DNA from: a virus
Virus genome (UHGV): UHGV-2140017
Length of the DNA: 24,660 nt
Strand: one strand, 5' to 3'
Under the pieces are notes generated by a model. It saw only the letters and a program-made list of their open reading frames with translations. It did no database searches and was not told the DNA's origin. Position 1 is the first letter of the stretch, and the number at the start of each line of letters is the position of its first letter. A program made the position numbers and the translations under genes. Below, in pieces: positions 1-13,876 of the stretch.

Positions 1-333
1 TGCCTCCCGGTAAGTCGCCGCCAGTCCACAGACGACTCGCAATGCGCAAAAAAACATATCAGACTGGCAATGCCCCTCCGCATAGGGGGATTCACCACAC
101 GGATAATTTAGGATGTAGTCATAGGCGGCGTCAATAACTGACACTCTGTCAAAGGCATCATTACGATGCCTTTTGCACAGTGCTAATCACTGGATCTAAT
201 AAGGGGCCAGAGCAAAGCGATTACCCCGGCTACCAGCACGCCATCAGCCAGGATTGACATCATTTGCTGGTGAAGTCGATAGCAACCACCAGAAACAAAA
301 GCACCCCGGCTGCGGCCCAGCGAAGTTTACCGA

Positions 334-759
334 TCACAGGTACTGGTCCAGAGGAAGTTGCAGAGCCTGGGCAATTTTCTTCAGCTGTTTCTCTTCTTCT
401 TCCCCGATGCCGTCGTTATCAGCTACATCAAGACACAGGCAAAGAACATCGACAGCGTCATCCGTCCCGGCAACGTCAGCCAGTTCGCGCAACGCCTGAG
501 CGTTGGCTGAACGTGGTGATGCTTCATAGCGAGCGCGAATATTCGAACTCATCTGGGCAATTTCACCAGCAAATGGCGCAAATGCAGGGAGGGCCGAAAT
601 AGTCTTCTCAAGCACTGCAATCTCTTTTGCATCGCAGGTGCCATCGGCGTATGCAATCGAGTACGCTCCCCAGACCGTGGCTTCTACGGCATCGCGGTTT
701 TCCATTTTTTTCACTTCAACAACGGCTTTACGGGCTTTCTTTTTAAAAATACCGAACAT
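334..759 (-). CDS. TerB-like (tellurite-resistance TerB family) small protein; start taken at internal ATG (MFGIFKKK...)
   Basis: All-helical ~141 aa protein with two D-G-x-x-D/E acidic repeats (YADGTCDAKE, ADNDGIGEEEE) and an MFGIFKKK N-terminus resembling TerB (MSFFDKVK...). GAGA-type RBS before the ATG at 759. Family call is from memory. Confidence 0.5.
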   Translation of the reverse strand: MFGIFKKKARKAVVEVKKMENRDAVEATVWGAYSIAYADGTCDAKEIAVLEKTISALPAFAPFAGEIAQMSSNIRARYEASPRSANAQALRELADVAGTDDAVDVLCLCLDVADNDGIGEEEEKQLKKIAQALQLPLDQYL

Positions 760-890
760 AATTACGTCTCTCTTTAGTGGTGAGCCAACGCTCAGGGATG
801 GTAACCACAAGGCGACGTAATACCGTCCCTCCTGGCTCACCCTGAAAAGTTGTGGTTTTGATTTTTCCGCCGAGCGAGGCGGCTATGAGC

Positions 891-1391
891 TTAAATAGAT
901 GAAAAATCACCATGGTACTGCCTGGAAGCAGCTACATACGCCCTGTGCGCTTCTTCTTTAGTGTGGAAGCGACCAAGTCGAATTTTTTTCTTTGCAATAC
1001 TTATTTGCGCAATCCATTTTTTTCTATTGCGGGGGGAATCGTTGAAATAGACCCCTTTAAGTCCAGCTGCGTTATTGCTGTGTATCCGTCGATTGCGAGT
1101 GTTCTGGTTTTGTGTGCAGAGCCTGAGATTTGTAATACGGTTATTCAACTTGTCGCCATCAATATGATCAACAACAAGGGTTGACGGAATTTCACCGTAT
1201 TTCAAGACACAAATTATTCGGTGCACACGTATATTCTTTCCATTGAAGAATACCCTTAAATACCCAGTATCAGTCTTGACGCCAAGAGTGTCGCCAGGAC
1301 TTTTACTCCCAAAAGGTGACTTGCAATAAAGGATGCCCGTAGTTTCATCGTATGAAAAAAAGGTCCTAACCGTTTCAAGAGATAGATTCAT
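891..1391 (-). CDS. HNH homing endonuclease with C-terminal AP2-type DNA-binding domain
   Basis: HNH_3-type motif VDHIDGDKLNNRITNLRLCTQNQN followed by an AP2-like segment GVYFNDSPRNRKKWIAQI...GRFHTKEEAHRAY. AGGAG RBS 5-6 nt before the ATG. Gene is visibly AT-richer than its neighbours. Confidence 0.8.
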   Translation of the reverse strand: MNLSLETVRTFFSYDETTGILYCKSPFGSKSPGDTLGVKTDTGYLRVFFNGKNIRVHRIICVLKYGEIPSTLVVDHIDGDKLNNRITNLRLCTQNQNTRNRRIHSNNAAGLKGVYFNDSPRNRKKWIAQISIAKKKIRLGRFHTKEEAHRAYVAASRQYHGDFSSI

Positions 1392-1447
1392 GCCTACTCC
1401 TGGTAAGGGTCCTGTGGTTAAATAACGCCGAGCGTGGCGCAGATACG

Positions 1448-1470
1448 AAAAAGGCCCGCGAATGCGAGCC
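1448..1470 (-). terminator. Intrinsic terminator (minus strand) between the methyltransferase and the HNH gene
   Basis: Minus-strand hairpin GGCTCGC-ATTC-GCGGGCC (one G-U wobble) followed by TTTTTCGT. Coordinates approximate. Confidence 0.45.
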
Positions 1471-1667
1471 TGATGGATCCGCTTACTGATACGGAGCTAC
1501 CAACCTAAGTTGTCGCAGATTCAAATTGTGGCCCTGCCTTTAAGTCACTTTGCGCACAGCTGGGACATGTAGTTTTCGCATCGTGATCGGGATTCGCTTC
1601 AGACGCTGGCCCCGCAGCCATTTAAGTGCCGGTTACGTTTATCCGGCGGCTTACGCCCGGTTAAGCC

Positions 1668-2747
1668 CTAAGGTAAGGGATTTGGCTGTGGTGGCTGGTG
1701 CTCCAGCAAATTACGCATTTCACTGACCGTCTGTTCAAATCTCCCGGTTTCCAGTTCGACACCTAGTCCCCTTCGCCCGAGAAGAGCAGCCTGTTTGAGC
1801 GTTGAACCTGATCCAAAAAAGAAATCAGCTACAACATCACCCGGGCGGCTACTCGCTGTGATTATCTGCTCCAGCATATCCGCAGGCTTTTCACATGGGT
1901 GTTTACCTGGATAAAACTGAACAGGCTTATGAGTCCAGACGTCGGTATATGGCACTGTGACCGATACGCTGAATGGTCGCCGTAAACGGTAATACTCCTG
2001 CTGGAGTTCAGAATATTTTCTGCTCAACGATTGCCAGGTAGCGACAAGCTGGTGGTGAGGTTTTCCCAGTTCGTTGCGTGAGTGCTTATCCATGGCGATT
2101 TTTTGAAACAGAGCCTGCAACTTCAAATAATCGGCTTCATTCGGCAGTTGCCACTGGCTAAGGCCAAACCAGTGGGAAACCATATTTTTCTTACCTGTGG
2201 CTTCTGCAATCTGGGCCGACGTCACGCCAAGAGATTCCCGTGCATCACGGAAGTAAGAAATTAAAGGCGTCATGACGTGTTGCTTTAACTCATTACACTT
2301 TGCGGCATATCCATCGTCTTTGGGCCTGTATGGCCCCTGATAATGGTCGGCAAAAATGATACGCTCAGTGGCCGGGAAATAAGCGCGTAAGCTCTCCTTA
2401 TTGCAGCCGTTCCATCGCCCTGATGGCTTAGCCCAGATGATATGGTTGAGCAGGTTAAACCGCTCTCTCACCAACAGCTCAATATCCGCTGCCAGGCGGT
2501 GCCCACAGAACAGATACATGCTGCCGGCAGGTTTTAACACTCGCCAGAACTGTGCCAGACAGCTATCCAGCCAACGTAAATAGTCCTCGTCCCCCTTCCA
2601 TTGGTTATCCCAGCCGTTTGGCTTCACCTTAAAATAAGGCGGATCGGTAACAATAAGATCAATGGAGTTATCGGGTAGCGATGGGAGGTATTGCAGGCAA
2701 TCAGCATTGATTAATTCAATACTGGATATTTTTACAGTATTTTTCAT
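1668..2747 (-). CDS. Beta-class DNA methyltransferase (PF01555-like), predicted N6-adenine specific
   Basis: Motif IV DLIVTDPPY near the N-terminus and motif I DFFFGSGSTLKQAALLGRRGLGVELE near the C-terminus; IV-before-I order is the beta class and DPPY favours N6-adenine. ATG start. Confidence 0.85.
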   Translation of the reverse strand: MKNTVKISSIELINADCLQYLPSLPDNSIDLIVTDPPYFKVKPNGWDNQWKGDEDYLRWLDSCLAQFWRVLKPAGSMYLFCGHRLAADIELLVRERFNLLNHIIWAKPSGRWNGCNKESLRAYFPATERIIFADHYQGPYRPKDDGYAAKCNELKQHVMTPLISYFRDARESLGVTSAQIAEATGKKNMVSHWFGLSQWQLPNEADYLKLQALFQKIAMDKHSRNELGKPHHQLVATWQSLSRKYSELQQEYYRLRRPFSVSVTVPYTDVWTHKPVQFYPGKHPCEKPADMLEQIITASSRPGDVVADFFFGSGSTLKQAALLGRRGLGVELETGRFEQTVSEMRNLLEHQPPQPNPLP

Positions 2748-2889
2748 AGATCAGTAAGCGTAACTCTGATAGGCTCACTTTGCTTTTGCGCTAAAGCAGT
2801 GGGCCGTGGTTAGCTTGTGACCTGAAAGCATGAGCTGATGGCTGGTCGGGTGCTACAACACCCACCAGCCGCCCATTTTCACAGCAAAA

Positions 2890-2911
2890 GCCCCCATTAC
2901 TGGGGGCGCTT
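2890..2911 (-). terminator. Possible weak intrinsic terminator (minus strand) overlapping the stop of the small HTH gene
   Basis: GCCCCC-AGTAAT-GGGGGC hairpin on the minus strand followed by CTTTTGCTG (short U-tract). Confidence 0.3.
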
Positions 2912-3088
2912 ATAACATCCGAACTGATAATCAGATAACCCCGCCATTACCAGCTGCGTAAGTATGAGCTGGCAGCGTTCGCGGCTCAGGTGAGTATTCT
3001 GAGCAATCTCCCCAGCCGTAGCCGGTTTGTCACTTAACTCATCAAAAACAGCCTTGGCTGTTTCCGTCATATCTTGCTGATTTAGCAT
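2897..3088 (-). CDS. Small winged-helix/HTH-like protein (~63 aa), first gene downstream of the Q1 leader
   Basis: Start chosen at internal ATG (MLNQQDMTETAK...) because GAGGT lies ~7 nt upstream; the longer 83-aa ORF has no RBS. Segment AGEIAQNTHLSRERCQLILTQLVMAGL looks like a recognition helix. Confidence 0.4.
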   Translation of the reverse strand: MLNQQDMTETAKAVFDELSDKPATAGEIAQNTHLSRERCQLILTQLVMAGLSDYQFGCYKRPQ

Positions 3089-3190
3089 GTCTTTTACCTC
3101 AAATAAGTGGTGTGACATACAGATAACTCTGGTGACGGTATCCAGCAAGAACTAATTGAAAGAGAAGAAGATTTTATCGATTTTAGCCCA

Positions 3191-3216
3191 TAAAAAAACC
3201 CGCTCGCTGGCGGGTT
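3191..3216 (-). terminator. tR'-like intrinsic terminator ending a short 6S-like leader transcript downstream of Q1
   Basis: Minus-strand CCCGC-CAGCGA-GCGGG hairpin followed by TTTTTTTAT, about 30-40 nt after the predicted start site. Confidence 0.6.
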
Positions 3217-3238
3217 AATCAACGTTGAACATACAAAG

Positions 3239-3283
3239 CCCATCGTTATAGATAAAATTACACAAAAGCGGCAACTTTGCAAG
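3239..3283 (-). promoter_or_regulatory. PR'-like late promoter with putative qut region
   Basis: Minus strand reads TTGCAA-N16-TAATTT followed by ...AACGATGGG, close to my recollection of lambda PR' (TTGACT-N17-TAAATT...AACGATGGG). Lies between Q1 stop and the terminator above. Confidence 0.5.
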
Positions 3284-3298
3284 TAACGTGTCGCTAAA

Positions 3299-4129
3299 TT
3301 ATGCGATATTTATCAAATCAGACACATTTGTCACACGTTTAAGCTGTGAGTCGGTATAACTCTCTTCCTCAAAGCATTTTGTAACAAGACTTTCATAGAA
3401 AGGTTTCCAGCTGTATCGCCAGGTTCGTTCTGGCAGACCAGGCAGCTCAGAGAGCATACCCCTGTAAGCATTTGAAGACTTAGGACGACTATAACCGCGG
3501 CCTTCACAACGTTTACACACTTTGTAGACAGGCACTCCCTGCAGCTCTGACTCTTTACGGTCCAGGGTTTTTCCCGTACCGCCACACTGGCATCGCTTGC
3601 TGATTTTCCCGGTGCCGCCACATTTGAAGCAAAGAACATGGTCAACCTCTTCCACCTGACGTTTTACTTCAAAATCCGAAGGTGACTGCCTGAGGTCTTT
3701 TGCCCATTGCGGTAATCTCATTGTGTAGTGGCTTTTTTCCACCATTGAGGTTTTTTTTATGAAGCCTGAACCAGAACACTTCCTGCAATCTACGCTGTCA
3801 GCTGCAGACGAGGCATAGTCGTTATAAGCGAACCGAGCTATTATCAGCATACACAGAGGGAACTTCTTCCCTGCTGCTTTTCTTATTGATCTAGGCGCTT
3901 TTGATTTTGCATATTCAGCCAACCAACTGACGGATGCCTTTCTGTCGTGTTCGCTGATTCCAGCTTTACCCAAAAACATTGACAGGCCTATTCCTGCCTC
4001 TGCCTGGGTCATCCCCAGTGCGGCCATTACATCTGTCACAGTGAGTTGCTCGCTGGCGGTTGCACGACCGCTATCGGAAATATGCATTCCTTTGGGCGCG
4101 AAAAATTTGGGAATTGATTCAATATTCAT
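3299..4129 (-). CDS. Q: Lambda-type antitermination protein Q (late gene regulator)
   Basis: Colinear with lambda Q from memory: N-terminal SDSGRATASEQLTVTDVMAALGM, central FAYNDYASSAADSVDCRKCSGSG, C-terminal CKRCEGRGYSRPKSSNAYR and PERTWRYSWKPFYESLVTKCFEEES. Start at ATG 4129 (MNIES) has GGAG upstream; the ORF-track start at 4147 is GTG. Confidence 0.85.
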   Translation of the reverse strand: MNIESIPKFFAPKGMHISDSGRATASEQLTVTDVMAALGMTQAEAGIGLSMFLGKAGISEHDRKASVSWLAEYAKSKAPRSIRKAAGKKFPLCMLIIARFAYNDYASSAADSVDCRKCSGSGFIKKTSMVEKSHYTMRLPQWAKDLRQSPSDFEVKRQVEEVDHVLCFKCGGTGKISKRCQCGGTGKTLDRKESELQGVPVYKVCKRCEGRGYSRPKSSNAYRGMLSELPGLPERTWRYSWKPFYESLVTKCFEEESYTDSQLKRVTNVSDLINIA

Positions 4130-4147
4130 GCTCAGTACTCCATACAC

Positions 4148-5203
4148 TCAAGCTTTTACAATGACGCCGATACCCATTACCCGATCCAGAAAACGAGCCC
4201 ACAGCTCTAACTGAGTGCCATATTTCTTTTCGAACTCTGATGTATTGGCGTGTAATTCATCGTGATGCACTCTGCACAGTGGTATCACGAAGAGATCATG
4301 GGCCTTGGTGCCAGTTCCCCCCAGACCATTCCCTATTATATGGTGTGGATCGTCTGATGGTTGCCTGCAGCATTCACATGGCTGAGTTTTAACCCAACGA
4401 GTGTAAACTTCGCAGGTCCAGCGCCGGCGCTTTGGGCGGCGCATAAATGATTCGGGGCTGTTCGGATCGACACTAAGCCTCAGAATGGGTTCACTTTCAA
4501 TCTGAGGTTGCTCAATGAGTACGCTGGCGTCCGCCAGGTCTATGCCCTCAACAAGATCCTGAAGGATTTCACCTGCAGCAAATGACGGGACAATATCGCT
4601 ATCCTTATAAACGGACAGGAAAGGTTCATCAGGCAGTCTTAAGGCCTGTTGCGCCATCGTCTCGGTTATTGCGTCAGCAATGCCGGATTTCACAGCCCAC
4701 CAGCAGAGCTCCGCCATCGATAATTCGCGCTCCTTATTGTATCCAAGGCTGATCAGCACCCTTTCAATCACCCACTGAACCAGATTCTGATAAGCCAGCT
4801 CTGACAACATTTCGGTGGTCTGCTCACGTAATTCATTATCACAATGCCAGCAGACAACCATGGCGCCAGGCGGATGCCGCATAGTCACTAATTCATGGTG
4901 GTGATAGTGGGAATGCGGGTACTGGCACTCTCTGACATGTCGTAGAAGCCAGGCCTCAAGAGCGTTAATTCCACCAGCTGCGTTAATAACCCTCTCATCC
5001 CTCATGAAAAAACGCAGAATGTCCATTTCTGCAAGGGGCTGACGTGCATCGGCGATCCGCCCAGTGGGCAGTGTTTTCATCTTCTCTGGCTGACGCTCTA
5101 TCAGGACACGGCCGCCGGTAAAGAGAGACATCAATTCGCGGCCTGGTTTGAAAAGAACAACGCCCAGGCGCGGCACAATTTCCGGAGTAAGCAATGCTCG
5201 CAC
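4148..5203 (-). CDS. DUF968-family prophage protein (HNH-like zinc-binding C-terminus)
   Basis: C-terminal WVKTQPCECCRQPSDDPHHIIGNGLGGTGTKAHDLFVIPLCRVHHDELH matches my recollection of DUF968 proteins (YdfU-like). GTG start with a G-rich RBS. Confidence 0.55.
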   Translation of the reverse strand: MRALLTPEIVPRLGVVLFKPGRELMSLFTGGRVLIERQPEKMKTLPTGRIADARQPLAEMDILRFFMRDERVINAAGGINALEAWLLRHVRECQYPHSHYHHHELVTMRHPPGAMVVCWHCDNELREQTTEMLSELAYQNLVQWVIERVLISLGYNKERELSMAELCWWAVKSGIADAITETMAQQALRLPDEPFLSVYKDSDIVPSFAAGEILQDLVEGIDLADASVLIEQPQIESEPILRLSVDPNSPESFMRRPKRRRWTCEVYTRWVKTQPCECCRQPSDDPHHIIGNGLGGTGTKAHDLFVIPLCRVHHDELHANTSEFEKKYGTQLELWARFLDRVMGIGVIVKA

Positions 5204-13243: not shown

Positions 13244-13876
13244 ATGAGCCTTGCAGAACGCGTAAAACAAAAAAGAATCGAACTTGGTCTTACTCAAGAG
13301 CAAGCAGCTGAAAAGGCAGGAATAAGGCAACAATCATGGGCCAGCATTGAGGATGGAAAAACTAAAAAGCCTCGCAACATAGTAGGAATAAGCAAAGCAC
13401 TTAAGTGCGACCCAACATGGTTGATGAACGGTGGGCCTTTCATGGCTCTGGCCGATGTGAATTCAAGGAAAGTACCTTTGATCAGTTACGTCCAGGCTGG
13501 GGCGTTAGCAGAAAAACACCCTATTGATGCATTTGATGGTAGCTTCGAATACATCATGACTGACCTTGATATTTCTGAGTTTACTTTTGCACTAAGGATA
13601 GAAGGTGATTCAATGGAGCCTGACTTTAAAGAAGGCGACATTATCATTGTTGATCCCGAGTTAGAGCCCGTTCCGGGCGAGTTTGTTGTTGCTAAAAATG
13701 GTGAAAATGAGGCTACTTTTAAAAAGTACCGTCCTACATTTACCGATATTTCAGGCCGCCAGCAATATGAACTGGTCCCCCTTAATGACGACTACCCCAC
13801 CATTAATAGCTCTGAACGCCCGTTGAAAATTATCGGCGTAATGGTCGAACATAGAATTTACAGGCGAAAAAGGTAA
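13244..13876 (+). CDS. cI: CI-type phage repressor (HTH plus LexA-like S24 peptidase autocleavage domain)
   Basis: N-terminal HTH LTQEQAAEKAGIRQQSWASIEDGKTKKP; C-terminal S24 features (GDSMEP with catalytic Ser, downstream Lys in ATFKKY). GGAGG RBS. Confidence 0.9.
   Translation: MSLAERVKQKRIELGLTQEQAAEKAGIRQQSWASIEDGKTKKPRNIVGISKALKCDPTWLMNGGPFMALADVNSRKVPLISYVQAGALAEKHPIDAFDGSFEYIMTDLDISEFTFALRIEGDSMEPDFKEGDIIIVDPELEPVPGEFVVAKNGENEATFKKYRPTFTDISGRQQYELVPLNDDYPTINSSERPLKIIGVMVEHRIYRRKR

What the first reader, a model, noticed from the sequence alone, without database searches (positions are those of the whole stretch)
891..1470. AT-rich free-standing HNH-AP2 homing endonuclease inserted downstream of the late-side methyltransferase
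The HNH gene is visibly AT-richer than its GC-rich neighbours, has its own strong RBS, and sits just after a terminator-like hairpin that ends the methyltransferase transcript. This is the signature of a recently acquired selfish homing endonuclease, not a restriction partner for the adjacent methyltransferase.
Basis: seen in the sequence. Interest (0 to 1): 0.4.

Follow-up and report, generated by a model that had tools for sequence, protein, structure and literature searches.

The report
Selfish HNH-AP2 nuclease gene in prophage
A small nuclease gene of a well-known selfish type (a free-standing HNH-AP2 "homing endonuclease") sits in the untranslated leader of a cargo gene in a Klebsiella lambda-like prophage; this is an ordinary thing in phages, although related phages show its insertion site unusually clearly.

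Summary
Window 891-1391 (minus strand) encodes a 166-aa HNH_3 + AP2 protein. It has an AGGAG ribosome-binding site 5 nt upstream. It is the lowest-GC gene in the window (41.3% against a mean of 51%). An intrinsic-terminator-like hairpin lies just upstream at 1471-1452.

The window is a Klebsiella lambdoid prophage, 99% identical to phage Kp4866-6. The gene order is Q, small ORF, orphan methyltransferase, HNH, tciA/tciB, lysis genes.

The HNH gene is tied to tciA, not to the methyltransferase:
- In four diverged lineages (70-100% protein identity; Klebsiella, Cronobacter, Franconibacter, metagenomes) it lies about 130 nt upstream of tciA, whatever lies further upstream.
- At least 120 viral contigs carry the uninterrupted "type A" leader. 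None of the 80 examined has this gene.
- The insert is flanked by a duplicated GC-rich hairpin, and in 7 of 7 viral contigs it comes with a variant "type B" leader.

The catalytic residues are invariant, dN/dS is 0.03-0.19, and the predicted fold matches I-HmuI plus AP2.

"Recently acquired" is not supported. The gene is present in all 7 records of this prophage lineage, and its low GC is shared by all four lineages. Nuclease activity and homing were not tested.

Verdict: a new member of a known kind, of low to moderate interest.

The parts
891..1391 (-). Free-standing HNH_3 (HNN-type) + AP2 endonuclease gene, 166 aa
   Evidence: ORF. Pfam HNH_3 1.1e-19 and AP2 2.2e-5. PHROG 99 'HNH endonuclease' 6.6e-61. 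PADLOC 'HEase' 4e-10. AlphaFold2 pLDDT 92, top PDB matches I-HmuI 1u3e and AP2 domains 7et5 and 1gcc. H57, D75, H76 and N88 are invariant in 40 homologues; N97 is kept in 38 of 40.
1397..1401 (-). Ribosome-binding site AGGAG, 5 nt before the ATG
   Evidence: Read from the sequence. Conserved as CC(A/G)GGAGTA(G/A)GC-ATG in all HNH+ loci.
1411..1440 (-). Upstream copy of the duplicated 5' end of the tciA leader. It comprises a type-A-like GC-rich hairpin (GCGCC-ACGCTC-GGCGT, 1440-1425) and AACCACAGG (1419-1411). In this window it carries a deletion of about 24 nt relative to L003, L005 and L006.
   Evidence: Window 1412-1471 is 97% identical to the empty-site phage L001 at 3556-3615. Alignment. 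Direct repeat D3, 868-881 / 1426-1439. The motif occurs only twice in the window, against 0.02 expected by chance.
1444..1471 (-). Intrinsic-terminator-like hairpin plus T tract, upstream of the HNH gene
   Evidence: Scan. The same block precedes the leader in the HNH-less phages L001, L010, L039 and L040.
760..885 (-). 'Type B' structured leader of tciA. This is the downstream copy: hairpin CCGCC-TCGCTC-GGCGG at 882-867, AACCACAA at 857-850, then a long stem that sequesters the tciA Shine-Dalgarno sequence. It is always linked to the HNH gene.
   Evidence: Alignments. All 7 type-B leaders in viral contigs are preceded by the HNH. 80-92% identity between HNH+ lineages, while tciA falls to about 50%. 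Folds.
334..759 (-). tciA (TerB-domain, P1 TciA-like) gene. It is the constant downstream neighbour whose leader is the insertion site.
   Evidence: Pfam TerB. PHROG 632. tblastn matches P1 tciA at 84%. It is the neighbour in every HNH+ locus.
183..338 (-). tciB-like (DUF3927) small gene, part of the tciAB cargo module that travels with the leader
   Evidence: Gene calls in L003-L009. ORF at L002 4883-5038, which is window 183-338. It lies inside the 1.35-kb block shared by L006 and L008.

Best explanation
This is a free-standing homing-endonuclease gene of the phage HNN-AP2 class, with an I-HmuI-like His-Me nuclease at the N-terminus and an AP2 DNA-binding domain at the C-terminus. It is inserted in the non-coding leader of the tciA-tciB cargo module, near the start of the late operon of a Klebsiella lambdoid prophage.

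Shown:
- The domain architecture and an intact catalytic motif.
- Purifying selection on the protein.
- A precise presence/absence polymorphism at one site: after ...ACCACAGAGCCTTT of the leader.
- A flanking duplication of about 30-40 nt that includes a GC-rich hairpin, so that a complete leader follows the insert.
- Strict linkage of the gene to a variant (type B) leader.
- The same cassette in at least four otherwise unrelated phage backgrounds.

Inferred:
- The gene has no promoter of its own that the scan could find and lies behind three terminators. It is probably made from the Q-antiterminated late transcript, using its own AGGAG site.
- When an HNH+ phage and a related phage with the common type A leader replicate in one cell, the enzyme nicks or cuts the type A allele near the junction it interrupts (CCTTT|CAGGGG). 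The AP2 domain possibly reads the adjacent GC-rich inverted repeat.
- Recombinational repair from the HNH+ genome then copies in the gene together with the linked, presumably uncuttable, type B leader. This would be intronless homing with co-conversion of flanking sequence.

The neighbouring methyltransferase belongs to a separate module and is unrelated to this gene.

The confidence of 0.7 applies to 'selfish free-standing homing-endonuclease gene inserted in the tciA leader'. Membership of the HNH-AP2 family alone is about 0.95. The specific target and homing scenario is about 0.5.
For: Family and fold:
- Pfam HNH_3 1.1e-19 and PHROG 99 6.6e-61.
- phmmer to I-HmuI 1u3e at 1.2e-6, with DH...NN...N aligned.
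- AlphaFold2 pLDDT 92. Foldseek's top hit is I-HmuI. AP2 domains superpose at 1.2-1.5 A over 51-54 columns.
- H57, D75, H76 and N88 are invariant; N97 is kept in 38 of 40.
- dN/dS is 0.03-0.19 between lineages.

Insertion:
- The empty site in phage 5 LV-2017 matches both flanks through a shared 28-nt segment.
- The repeat is confirmed.
- At least 120 viral contigs carry the uninterrupted type A junction. None of the 80 analysed has this gene.
- 13 genome loci with tciA (L010-L022) also lack it; the 14th, L023, was truncated so its upstream region could not be assessed.
- Only 1 of 41 phage records with tciA has it.

Site specificity and mobility:
- The position is the same in the window, L003, L005 and L006-L009, although these differ in Q family, replication module, lysis genes and even tciA allele (39% identity).
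- An identical HNH protein occurs in L006, L007 and L008. L006 and L008 share only a 1.35-kb block.
- Both tciA types carry leader A when HNH-less and leader B when HNH+.

Literature:
- HNN-AP2 genes are described as freestanding phage homing-endonuclease genes (PMC2248197; PMC10448857).
- AP2 domains favour G/C-rich motifs (PMC10448857; bioRxiv 10.64898/2026.02.23.707548).
Against: - No cleavage, target site or homing event was tested, so the target assignment is pure inference.
- The HNH-less tciAB module is itself spread across many backgrounds: leader A precedes the two tciA types 38:38. Ordinary lambdoid module shuffling could therefore explain the HNH distribution without any nuclease-driven drive.
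- One locus, L013, has a type B leader without the gene.
- The copy in this window has Cys at position 61, where 26 of 40 homologues have Trp.
- The Kp4866-6 record has a 1-nt deletion that frameshifts the gene. Some copies may therefore be decaying.
- The flanking duplication is not a usual footprint of homing.
Confidence: 0.7

Rival explanations
1. Passive or domesticated passenger. The gene was inserted once, long ago, and now spreads only because it is physically linked to the tciAB cargo module, which lambdoid phages exchange by ordinary recombination. The protein may be kept for another job, such as cutting competing phages (exclusion), or binding through its AP2 domain to the GC-rich hairpins that flank it in order to regulate tciA.
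For: - The tciAB module with leader A is widespread in unrelated backgrounds without any HNH.
- The block shared by L006 and L008 includes tciA and tciB, not just the HNH.
- The gene is fixed in this prophage lineage.
- The lineages are old, with saturated dS.
- Barth et al. note that bioinformatics alone cannot tell active homing from domestication (PMC10448857).
Against: - The HNH + leader B unit is joined to two tciA alleles that are only 39% identical, so it also moves independently of tciA.
- The nuclease motif is strictly conserved under purifying selection, which a pure DNA-binding regulator would not need.
- Exclusion of competitors by cutting them is mechanistically the same as homing.
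Confidence: 0.22
2. The restriction half of a restriction-modification pair with the adjacent N6/N4 methyltransferase (1668-2747).
For: - The two genes are adjacent and on the same strand.
- Some type II restriction enzymes are HNH nucleases (general knowledge).
- The methyltransferase matches a PADLOC type II methyltransferase model at 2.3e-144.
Against: - The HNH occurs without this methyltransferase in L003 and L005-L009.
- The small-ORF + methyltransferase module lies directly before the holin gene, with no HNH, in phiNP and mEp460. About 1000 E. coli genomes match only the methyltransferase part of the query.
- A terminator separates the two genes.
- The PADLOC matches of the HNH are to 'homing endonuclease' models, not to restriction-enzyme models.
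Confidence: 0.02
3. A packaging-associated HNH like HK97 gp74, which assists terminase in cutting cos.
For: HNH proteins in lambdoid/HK97-like phages can serve in packaging (PMC10448857, discussion).
Against: - The gene lies between Q and the lysis genes, not next to terminase.
- L003 and L007 carry a separate PF01844 HNH of 116-119 aa directly upstream of the terminase or at the end of the lysis region.
- The gene belongs to a different Pfam family (HNH_3 plus AP2).
- It is absent from most relatives.
Confidence: 0.02

Closest known systems
Freestanding HNN-AP2 endonuclease genes of phages (Xanthomonas phages Xp10, OP1 and Xop411; also T1, T5, Rtp, RB43 and ICP1 'IPA-HNH' genes)
   Same: It has the same two-domain architecture: an N-terminal HNN-type His-Me nuclease without zinc-binding cysteine pairs, and a C-terminal AP2 domain. 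The size is similar (about 160-170 aa). It is a freestanding intergenic gene with patchy presence and signs of decay in some copies. tblastn finds 39-44% identical full-length relatives in Xp10, OP1, Xop411 and T1-like coliphages. The class is described in PMC2248197 and PMC10448857.
   Different: Here the host genome is a temperate lambdoid prophage, and the site is the 5' leader of a cargo gene rather than a position near replication or structural genes. In contrast to the Xoo phages, where no conserved flanks were found (PMC2248197), this lineage is strictly site-specific and has a flanking duplication.
I-HmuI (SPO1 intron-encoded HNH nicking endonuclease, PDB 1U3E)
   Same: It is the best solved-structure match by both sequence (E 1.2e-6, residues 43-102) and fold (Foldseek E 1.7e-4). 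The motif HR..(V/I)..DH.DG.K.NN...NLR..T...N is shared.
   Different: I-HmuI is encoded inside a group I intron and uses a C-terminal helix-turn-helix domain, not AP2. No intron is detectable here: Rfam has no group I intron hit, and the empty-site leader is only about 125 nt.
T4 Seg/Mob-type 'intronless homing' (for example SegF and SegG; recalled from memory, not read here)
   Same: It is a freestanding endonuclease gene between genes. The proposed mechanism is the same: cut the endonuclease-less allele of a co-infecting relative, then spread by repair with co-conversion of nearby markers. Here the co-converted marker would be the linked leader B.
   Different: The T4 Seg proteins are GIY-YIG enzymes in a virulent phage. 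Activity is demonstrated there and only inferred here.
Lambdoid 'morons' (extra genes between Q/pR' and the lysis genes, such as stx; recalled from memory)
   Same: It is extra DNA present in some relatives and absent in others. It has a deviant base composition and lies in the classic cargo region downstream of Q, bounded by terminator-like hairpins.
   Different: Morons usually bring their own promoter and benefit the lysogen. No promoter was found here, and the product belongs to a selfish-nuclease family.

Membership tests
HNH_3 / HNN-type His-Me endonuclease (I-HmuI-like) | Significant match to the family profile | tested here: met
   Pfam PF13392 at E 1.1e-19, 70.2 bits against a cut-off of 24.8. 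PHROG 99 at 6.6e-61.
HNH_3 / HNN-type His-Me endonuclease (I-HmuI-like) | Catalytic Asp-His, and the Asn residues of the beta-beta-alpha-metal motif, are present | tested here: met
   D75-H76, N88 and N97 align with the DH...N...N motif of I-HmuI. H57, D75, H76 and N88 are invariant in 40 homologues; N97 is kept in 38 of 40.
HNH_3 / HNN-type His-Me endonuclease (I-HmuI-like) | Beta-beta-alpha fold resembling a solved member | tested here: met
   AlphaFold2 pLDDT 92.1. The top Foldseek PDB match is 1u3e (E 1.7e-4, probability 1.00). The global TM-score is only 0.42 because the C-terminal domains differ.
HNH_3 / HNN-type His-Me endonuclease (I-HmuI-like) | Metal-dependent DNA nicking or cleavage | not testable with these tools
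   Needs a biochemical assay.
AP2 DNA-binding domain | Match to the Pfam AP2 profile above the curated threshold | tested here: not met
   PF00847 at E 2.2e-5, 25.1 bits, below the 33.3-bit cut-off. Precomputed Pfam does list PF00847 for most close homologues.
AP2 DNA-binding domain | Three-stranded sheet packed on one helix, superposable on solved AP2 domains | tested here: met
   The model has strands 114-116, 126-132 and 135-142 and a helix at 145-163. It superposes on 7et5 at rmsd 1.2 A over 51 columns, and on 1gcc at rmsd 1.5 A over 54 columns with target TM-score 0.68.
Free-standing homing endonuclease gene | Not inside an intron or intein; an intergenic gene with its own translation signals | tested here: met
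   It lies between the terminator and the tciA leader, with an AGGAG ribosome-binding site. Rfam gives no intron match.
Free-standing homing endonuclease gene | Presence/absence polymorphism at one defined site among related genomes | tested here: met
   Empty sites were found in L001, L010, L011, L014, L039-L041 and in at least 120 viral contigs. Occupied sites were found in 4 lineages at the same position.
Free-standing homing endonuclease gene | The enzyme cuts the endonuclease-less allele, and the gene is copied in by repair (super-Mendelian inheritance) | not testable with these tools
   There is only indirect support. The gene is linked to a variant leader in both tciA backgrounds, and the cassette occurs in unrelated backgrounds.
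Type II restriction-modification pair | Nuclease and methyltransferase co-occur across genomes | tested here: not met
   Each occurs without the other.

The most novel reading that the evidence does not exclude
The nuclease's target may be the DNA that encodes a conserved, so far undescribed, structured leader RNA of tciA. This leader is about 125 nt, has a GC-rich hairpin and a long stem that sequesters the Shine-Dalgarno sequence, and has no Rfam family.

Under this reading, the type B leader that always accompanies the gene is an immune allele. It has been re-coded by compensatory changes that keep the RNA fold while destroying the DNA recognition site. The cassette would then carry its own replacement copy of the element it interrupts, and conflict with the homing endonuclease, rather than drift, would explain the covariation between the A and B leaders.
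Probability: 0.2. Interest if true: 0.5.

Novelty: new member of a known kind. Interest (0 to 1): 0.25.

Why it matters
Free-standing HNH-AP2 nuclease genes are very common in phages: 4352 phage records have a match. Very few of them have a defined target, and most studied cases are in virulent phages.

This locus offers a clean natural experiment in temperate enterobacterial phages. There are many empty sites, a few occupied ones, a defined junction and a linked variant allele. A cleavage assay and a mixed-infection homing test could therefore be designed directly from the sequences.

It also corrects the annotation logic. The nuclease is not a restriction partner of the neighbouring methyltransferase. 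Beyond that, it is an expected kind of selfish element.

Tried and rejected
- **Restriction-modification partner:** rejected on distribution.
- **HK97 gp74-type packaging HNH:** rejected on position and family. Separate PF01844 HNH genes exist near terminase in L003 and L007.
- **Group I intron or other known RNA around the gene:** Rfam found nothing at 760-1500. The only hits in 1-4300 were STnc100 at 1-129 and a weak terminator-driven Trp_leader hit at 3190-3279. The type A leader in L041 gave only sub-threshold, terminator-driven hits.
- **tRNA genes or remnants near the insert:** ARAGORN found none in the window, although L001, L003 and L039 have tRNAs upstream of the same terminator.
- **Own sigma-70 promoter for the HNH gene:** none between the terminator and the ATG. 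The only nearby hit (1242-1213) lies inside the ORF, and the total number of hits in the region is below the shuffle expectation.
- **An isogenic empty site** (the same methyltransferase-terminator junction without the HNH): all 6 viral contigs with that junction carry the gene.
- **The 17-nt type B pattern:** it also hit 7 unrelated contigs by chance, which I discarded after inspection.
- **MAFFT alignment of A and B leaders:** it is out of structural register in the centre. I therefore did not run a formal pseudoknot covariation count. The interleaved CCACAGAG/CTCTGTGG (type A) versus AACCACAA/TTGTGGTT (type B) pairing was seen by eye only.
- **Anti-phage defence system membership:** PADLOC gives only 'homing endonuclease' models for the HNH, and nothing for tciA.

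Full report
**What is in the window**

The window is a lambdoid prophage of Klebsiella. Positions 300-2800 are 99.1% identical to Klebsiella phage Kp4866-6, and six IMG/VR contigs match more than 5 kb at 97-100%.

The left 4.2 kb is read on the minus strand. In the direction of transcription it contains:
- the antiterminator Q (4147-3299; Pfam Antiterm);
- a tR'-like terminator (3216-3197);
- an 83-aa winged-helix ORF (3148-2897), followed by a terminator (2907-2890);
- an N6/N4 DNA methyltransferase (2747-1668);
- a terminator (1471-1452);
- the HNH ORF (1391-891);
- a gene for a TerB-domain protein 84% identical to P1 TciA (759-334);
- a tciB-like gene (338-183).

In Kp4866-6 the holin and endolysin genes follow.

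**Checking the observation**

The 166-aa ORF matches Pfam HNH_3 (1.1e-19) and, below threshold, AP2 (2.2e-5). Its GC content is 41.3% and its GC3 is 39.5%. It is the lowest of the 28 ORFs I tabulated (mean 51.1%, z = -2.5), and only 0.6% of 501-nt windows are as low. The neighbours sit at 49-51%, so "GC-rich neighbours" overstates the contrast.

AGGAG lies 5 nt upstream of the ATG. A terminator-like hairpin with a T tract lies 60 nt upstream.

**What the protein is**

- The nuclease part aligns to the SPO1 homing endonuclease I-HmuI (1u3e, E 1.2e-6) across the HR...DH.DG.K.NN...NLR...N motif.
- In an alignment of 40 homologues, H57, D75, H76 and N88 are invariant, and N84, N97 and N100 nearly so.
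- An AlphaFold2 model built from that alignment has a mean pLDDT of 92.
- Foldseek against the PDB ranks I-HmuI first. The C-terminal 50 residues superpose on plant AP2 domains: 7et5 at rmsd 1.2 A, and 1gcc at 1.5 A with target TM-score 0.68.
- PHROG 99 "HNH endonuclease" (6.6e-61) and PADLOC "homing endonuclease" models agree.

This is the "HNN-AP2" class of freestanding phage endonuclease genes described for Xanthomonas phages and others (PMC2248197), and for ICP1 and many other phages (PMC10448857). tblastn finds matches in 4352 phage records, typically at about 40% identity. Close relatives are rare: clusters at 98%, 83%, 80%, 73% and 70% identity, and then nothing above 43%.

**Where it sits, and the empty site**

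In every locus that carries a close relative, the gene lies about 130 nt upstream of a tciA-tciB pair. These loci are Cronobacter L003, Franconibacter L005 and L029, and metagenomic L006-L009. The upstream neighbours differ between them: a PF06530-type Q with a T5orf172 gene and a tRNA, PF03589-type Q proteins of two lengths, and, in the window, the methyltransferase.

Klebsiella phage 5 LV-2017 (L001) has the same terminator and the same tciA (97% protein identity) but no HNH gene. Window 142-881 matches L001 2839-3583, and window 1412-1471 matches L001 3556-3615. A 28-nt stretch of L001 therefore matches both flanks of the insert. The core of this repeat (868-881 / 1426-1439) is found by the repeat finder. 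It occurs only twice in the window, against 0.02 expected by chance.

In the direction of transcription, the occupied site reads:

terminator - GCGCCACGCTCGGCG(C/T) hairpin - AT-rich spacer - ACCACAGAGCCTTT - about 30 nt including the RBS - HNH - CCGCCTCGCTCGGCGG hairpin - AT-rich spacer - AACCACAACTTTTCAGGGTGAGCC... - rest of the leader - tciA.

The empty site has a single GCGCCACGCTCGGCGC - ACCACAGAGCCTTTCAGGGGTGAGCC....

The window's upstream copy carries an extra deletion of about 24 nt relative to L003, L005 and L006.

**Two leader alleles**

The roughly 125-nt tciA leader comes in two sequence types.

- **Type A** precedes tciA in HNH-less loci: L001, L010, L011, L014, L016, L023, L024 and L039-L041. 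Of the 80 I analysed, none has this HNH gene, and 38 precede each of the two tciA protein types, which are only 39% identical to each other.
- **Type B** is found in all HNH+ loci. In viral contigs, 7 of 7 genuine type B leaders are preceded by the gene.

The association holds in both tciA backgrounds. JLK-2012 and Evi (HNH-less) have leader A, while L005 and L006 carry the same tciA type and have the HNH plus leader B. The one exception is L013, which has a type B leader directly after a terminator and no HNH gene.

Between the window and L005, L006 or L008, identity is 56-82% across the HNH gene and 80-92% across the leader. It falls to about 50% in tciA and rises again in tciB.

L006 and L008 encode identical HNH proteins but share only a 1.35-kb block. 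That block runs from about 100 nt upstream of the HNH start to the end of tciB. Everything else in the two loci is unrelated.

**Is the gene functional, and is it recent?**

Pairwise dN/dS between lineages is 0.03-0.19, with dS saturated for the most distant pairs. The protein has therefore been kept under selection for a long time at this site.

All lineages have 40-41% GC, against 51-54% in their flanks. The low GC is thus an enduring property of the gene and not evidence of recent arrival.

Within the window's own prophage lineage the gene is always present. All six viral contigs with the methyltransferase-terminator junction, and Kp4866-6, carry it. I could not find an isogenic empty site.

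There are hints of decay in some copies:
- the Kp4866-6 record, which is flagged UNVERIFIED, has a 1-nt deletion in an A run that frameshifts the gene;
- L038 is disrupted;
- a 97-aa truncated homologue exists in K. michiganensis;
- the window's copy has Cys61 where 26 of 40 homologues have Trp.

**Relation to the methyltransferase**

The small-ORF + methyltransferase pair is a separate module. In Citrobacter phage phiNP and in mEp460 it lies between Q and the holin gene, with neither the HNH nor tciA. About 1000 E. coli genomes match only the methyltransferase part of the query.

The terminator at 1471-1452 belongs to the conserved block in front of the tciA leader. The same terminator follows tRNA genes in phages that lack the methyltransferase. 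It is therefore not specifically the methyltransferase's terminator.

**Most likely mechanism**

The gene is a freestanding homing-endonuclease gene. I infer the following steps.

- It is translated from the Q-antiterminated late transcript. No promoter was found between the terminator and the ATG.
- Its product attacks the common type A allele in related phage genomes present in the same cell.
- Recombinational repair then copies in the gene together with leader B.
- Interruption of the sequence at CCTTT|CAGGGG, together with the divergent leader B, would make the carrier immune.
- The AP2 domain may read the GC-rich inverted repeat 20-35 bp from the junction. AP2 domains favour G/C-rich motifs (PMC10448857; bioRxiv 10.64898/2026.02.23.707548).

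The geometry, with the nuclease at one end and the DNA-binding domain about two helical turns away, resembles I-HmuI. That comparison rests on general knowledge of the 1U3E structure.

None of the activity steps is shown. The main rival is that the gene is a passenger of the tciAB cargo module, which spreads perfectly well without it.

**The leader itself (side observation)**

RNAfold and RNAalifold predict a 5-bp GC-rich hairpin followed by a long stem. The base of that stem pairs CCUUU (type A) or CUUUU (type B) with the tciA Shine-Dalgarno sequence.

Several pairs differ between A and B by changes on both sides. For example, the hairpin-closing G-C becomes C-G (13 against 4 sequences) and column pair 58/130 changes from G-C to A-U.

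By eye there is also an interleaved pairing: CCACAGAG/CTCTGTGG in A against AACCACAA/TTGTGGTT in B. There is a further complementarity between the central loop and the nucleotides just before the start codon: GTGACTTT/AAAGTCAC in A against ATTACGTC/GACGTAAT in B. I did not test either of these formally. No Rfam family matches.

**Verdict**

Three corrections apply:
- it is tied to the tciA leader rather than to the methyltransferase;
- it is old rather than recent;
- its activity is untested.

Noticed in passing
window 760-885 (minus strand); also L001, L010-L016, L039-L041 and more than 100 viral contigs: The 5' leader of tciA is a conserved non-coding element of about 125 nt with two sequence types, A and B. 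Predicted features are a GC-rich hairpin and a long stem that sequesters the Shine-Dalgarno sequence, with compensatory differences between A and B. A pseudoknot-like pairing and a loop/start-codon pairing are possible. No Rfam family matches. It could be an undescribed translational control element.
   Followed up: partly
window 1-129 (minus strand): A match to the Rfam sRNA family STnc100 (RF02076): 53.6 bits against a gathering score of 47, E 7e-10. The match is cut off by the window end. It lies downstream of tciB and before the lysis genes.
   Followed up: no
L024 10-400; L043, L067, L071 and L078 (about 90 nt upstream of the type A junction): A second, unrelated HNH-AP2 gene (30-32% identity to the window protein) is inserted in the same Q-to-tciA interval but at a different point, just before the tR'-like terminator. 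The region therefore looks like a hotspot for this gene class.
   Followed up: partly
L002 (Kp4866-6) about 5960, equivalent to window about 1259; L038 4078-4574; protein P0006: Some copies of the HNH gene look damaged. There is a 1-nt deletion in an A run in the UNVERIFIED Kp4866-6 record, a disrupted copy in L038, and a 97-aa truncated homologue in K. michiganensis. These may be sequencing errors or real decay.
   Followed up: partly
window 1209-1211 (codon 61 of the HNH gene): The window's copy, and the 100% identical L027, L035 and L036, has Cys at position 61 of the conserved HRxIW box. L030 and 26 of 40 homologues have Trp there. The effect on activity is unknown.
   Followed up: no
window 1668-3216: The 83-aa winged-helix ORF plus the orphan type II-like methyltransferase form their own module, with a terminator-like hairpin after the ORF and after the methyltransferase. 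The tR'-like hairpin at 3216-3197 lies upstream of the 83-aa ORF. The same pair lies between Q and the holin gene in phiNP and mEp460. The 196 nt between the methyltransferase stop and the terminator (1472-1667) has no match outside this prophage lineage.
   Followed up: partly
L012, L016, L024: Enterobacterial phage sequence (tciA at 89-100% identity) appears in records labelled Pseudomonas lundensis, a Bacillota MAG and Kocuria sabuli. This probably reflects contamination or mis-binning in those assemblies.
   Followed up: no
window 13244-13876 and 3001-3500: Two other stretches have GC content nearly as low as the HNH gene (43% and 42%). I did not examine them.
   Followed up: no
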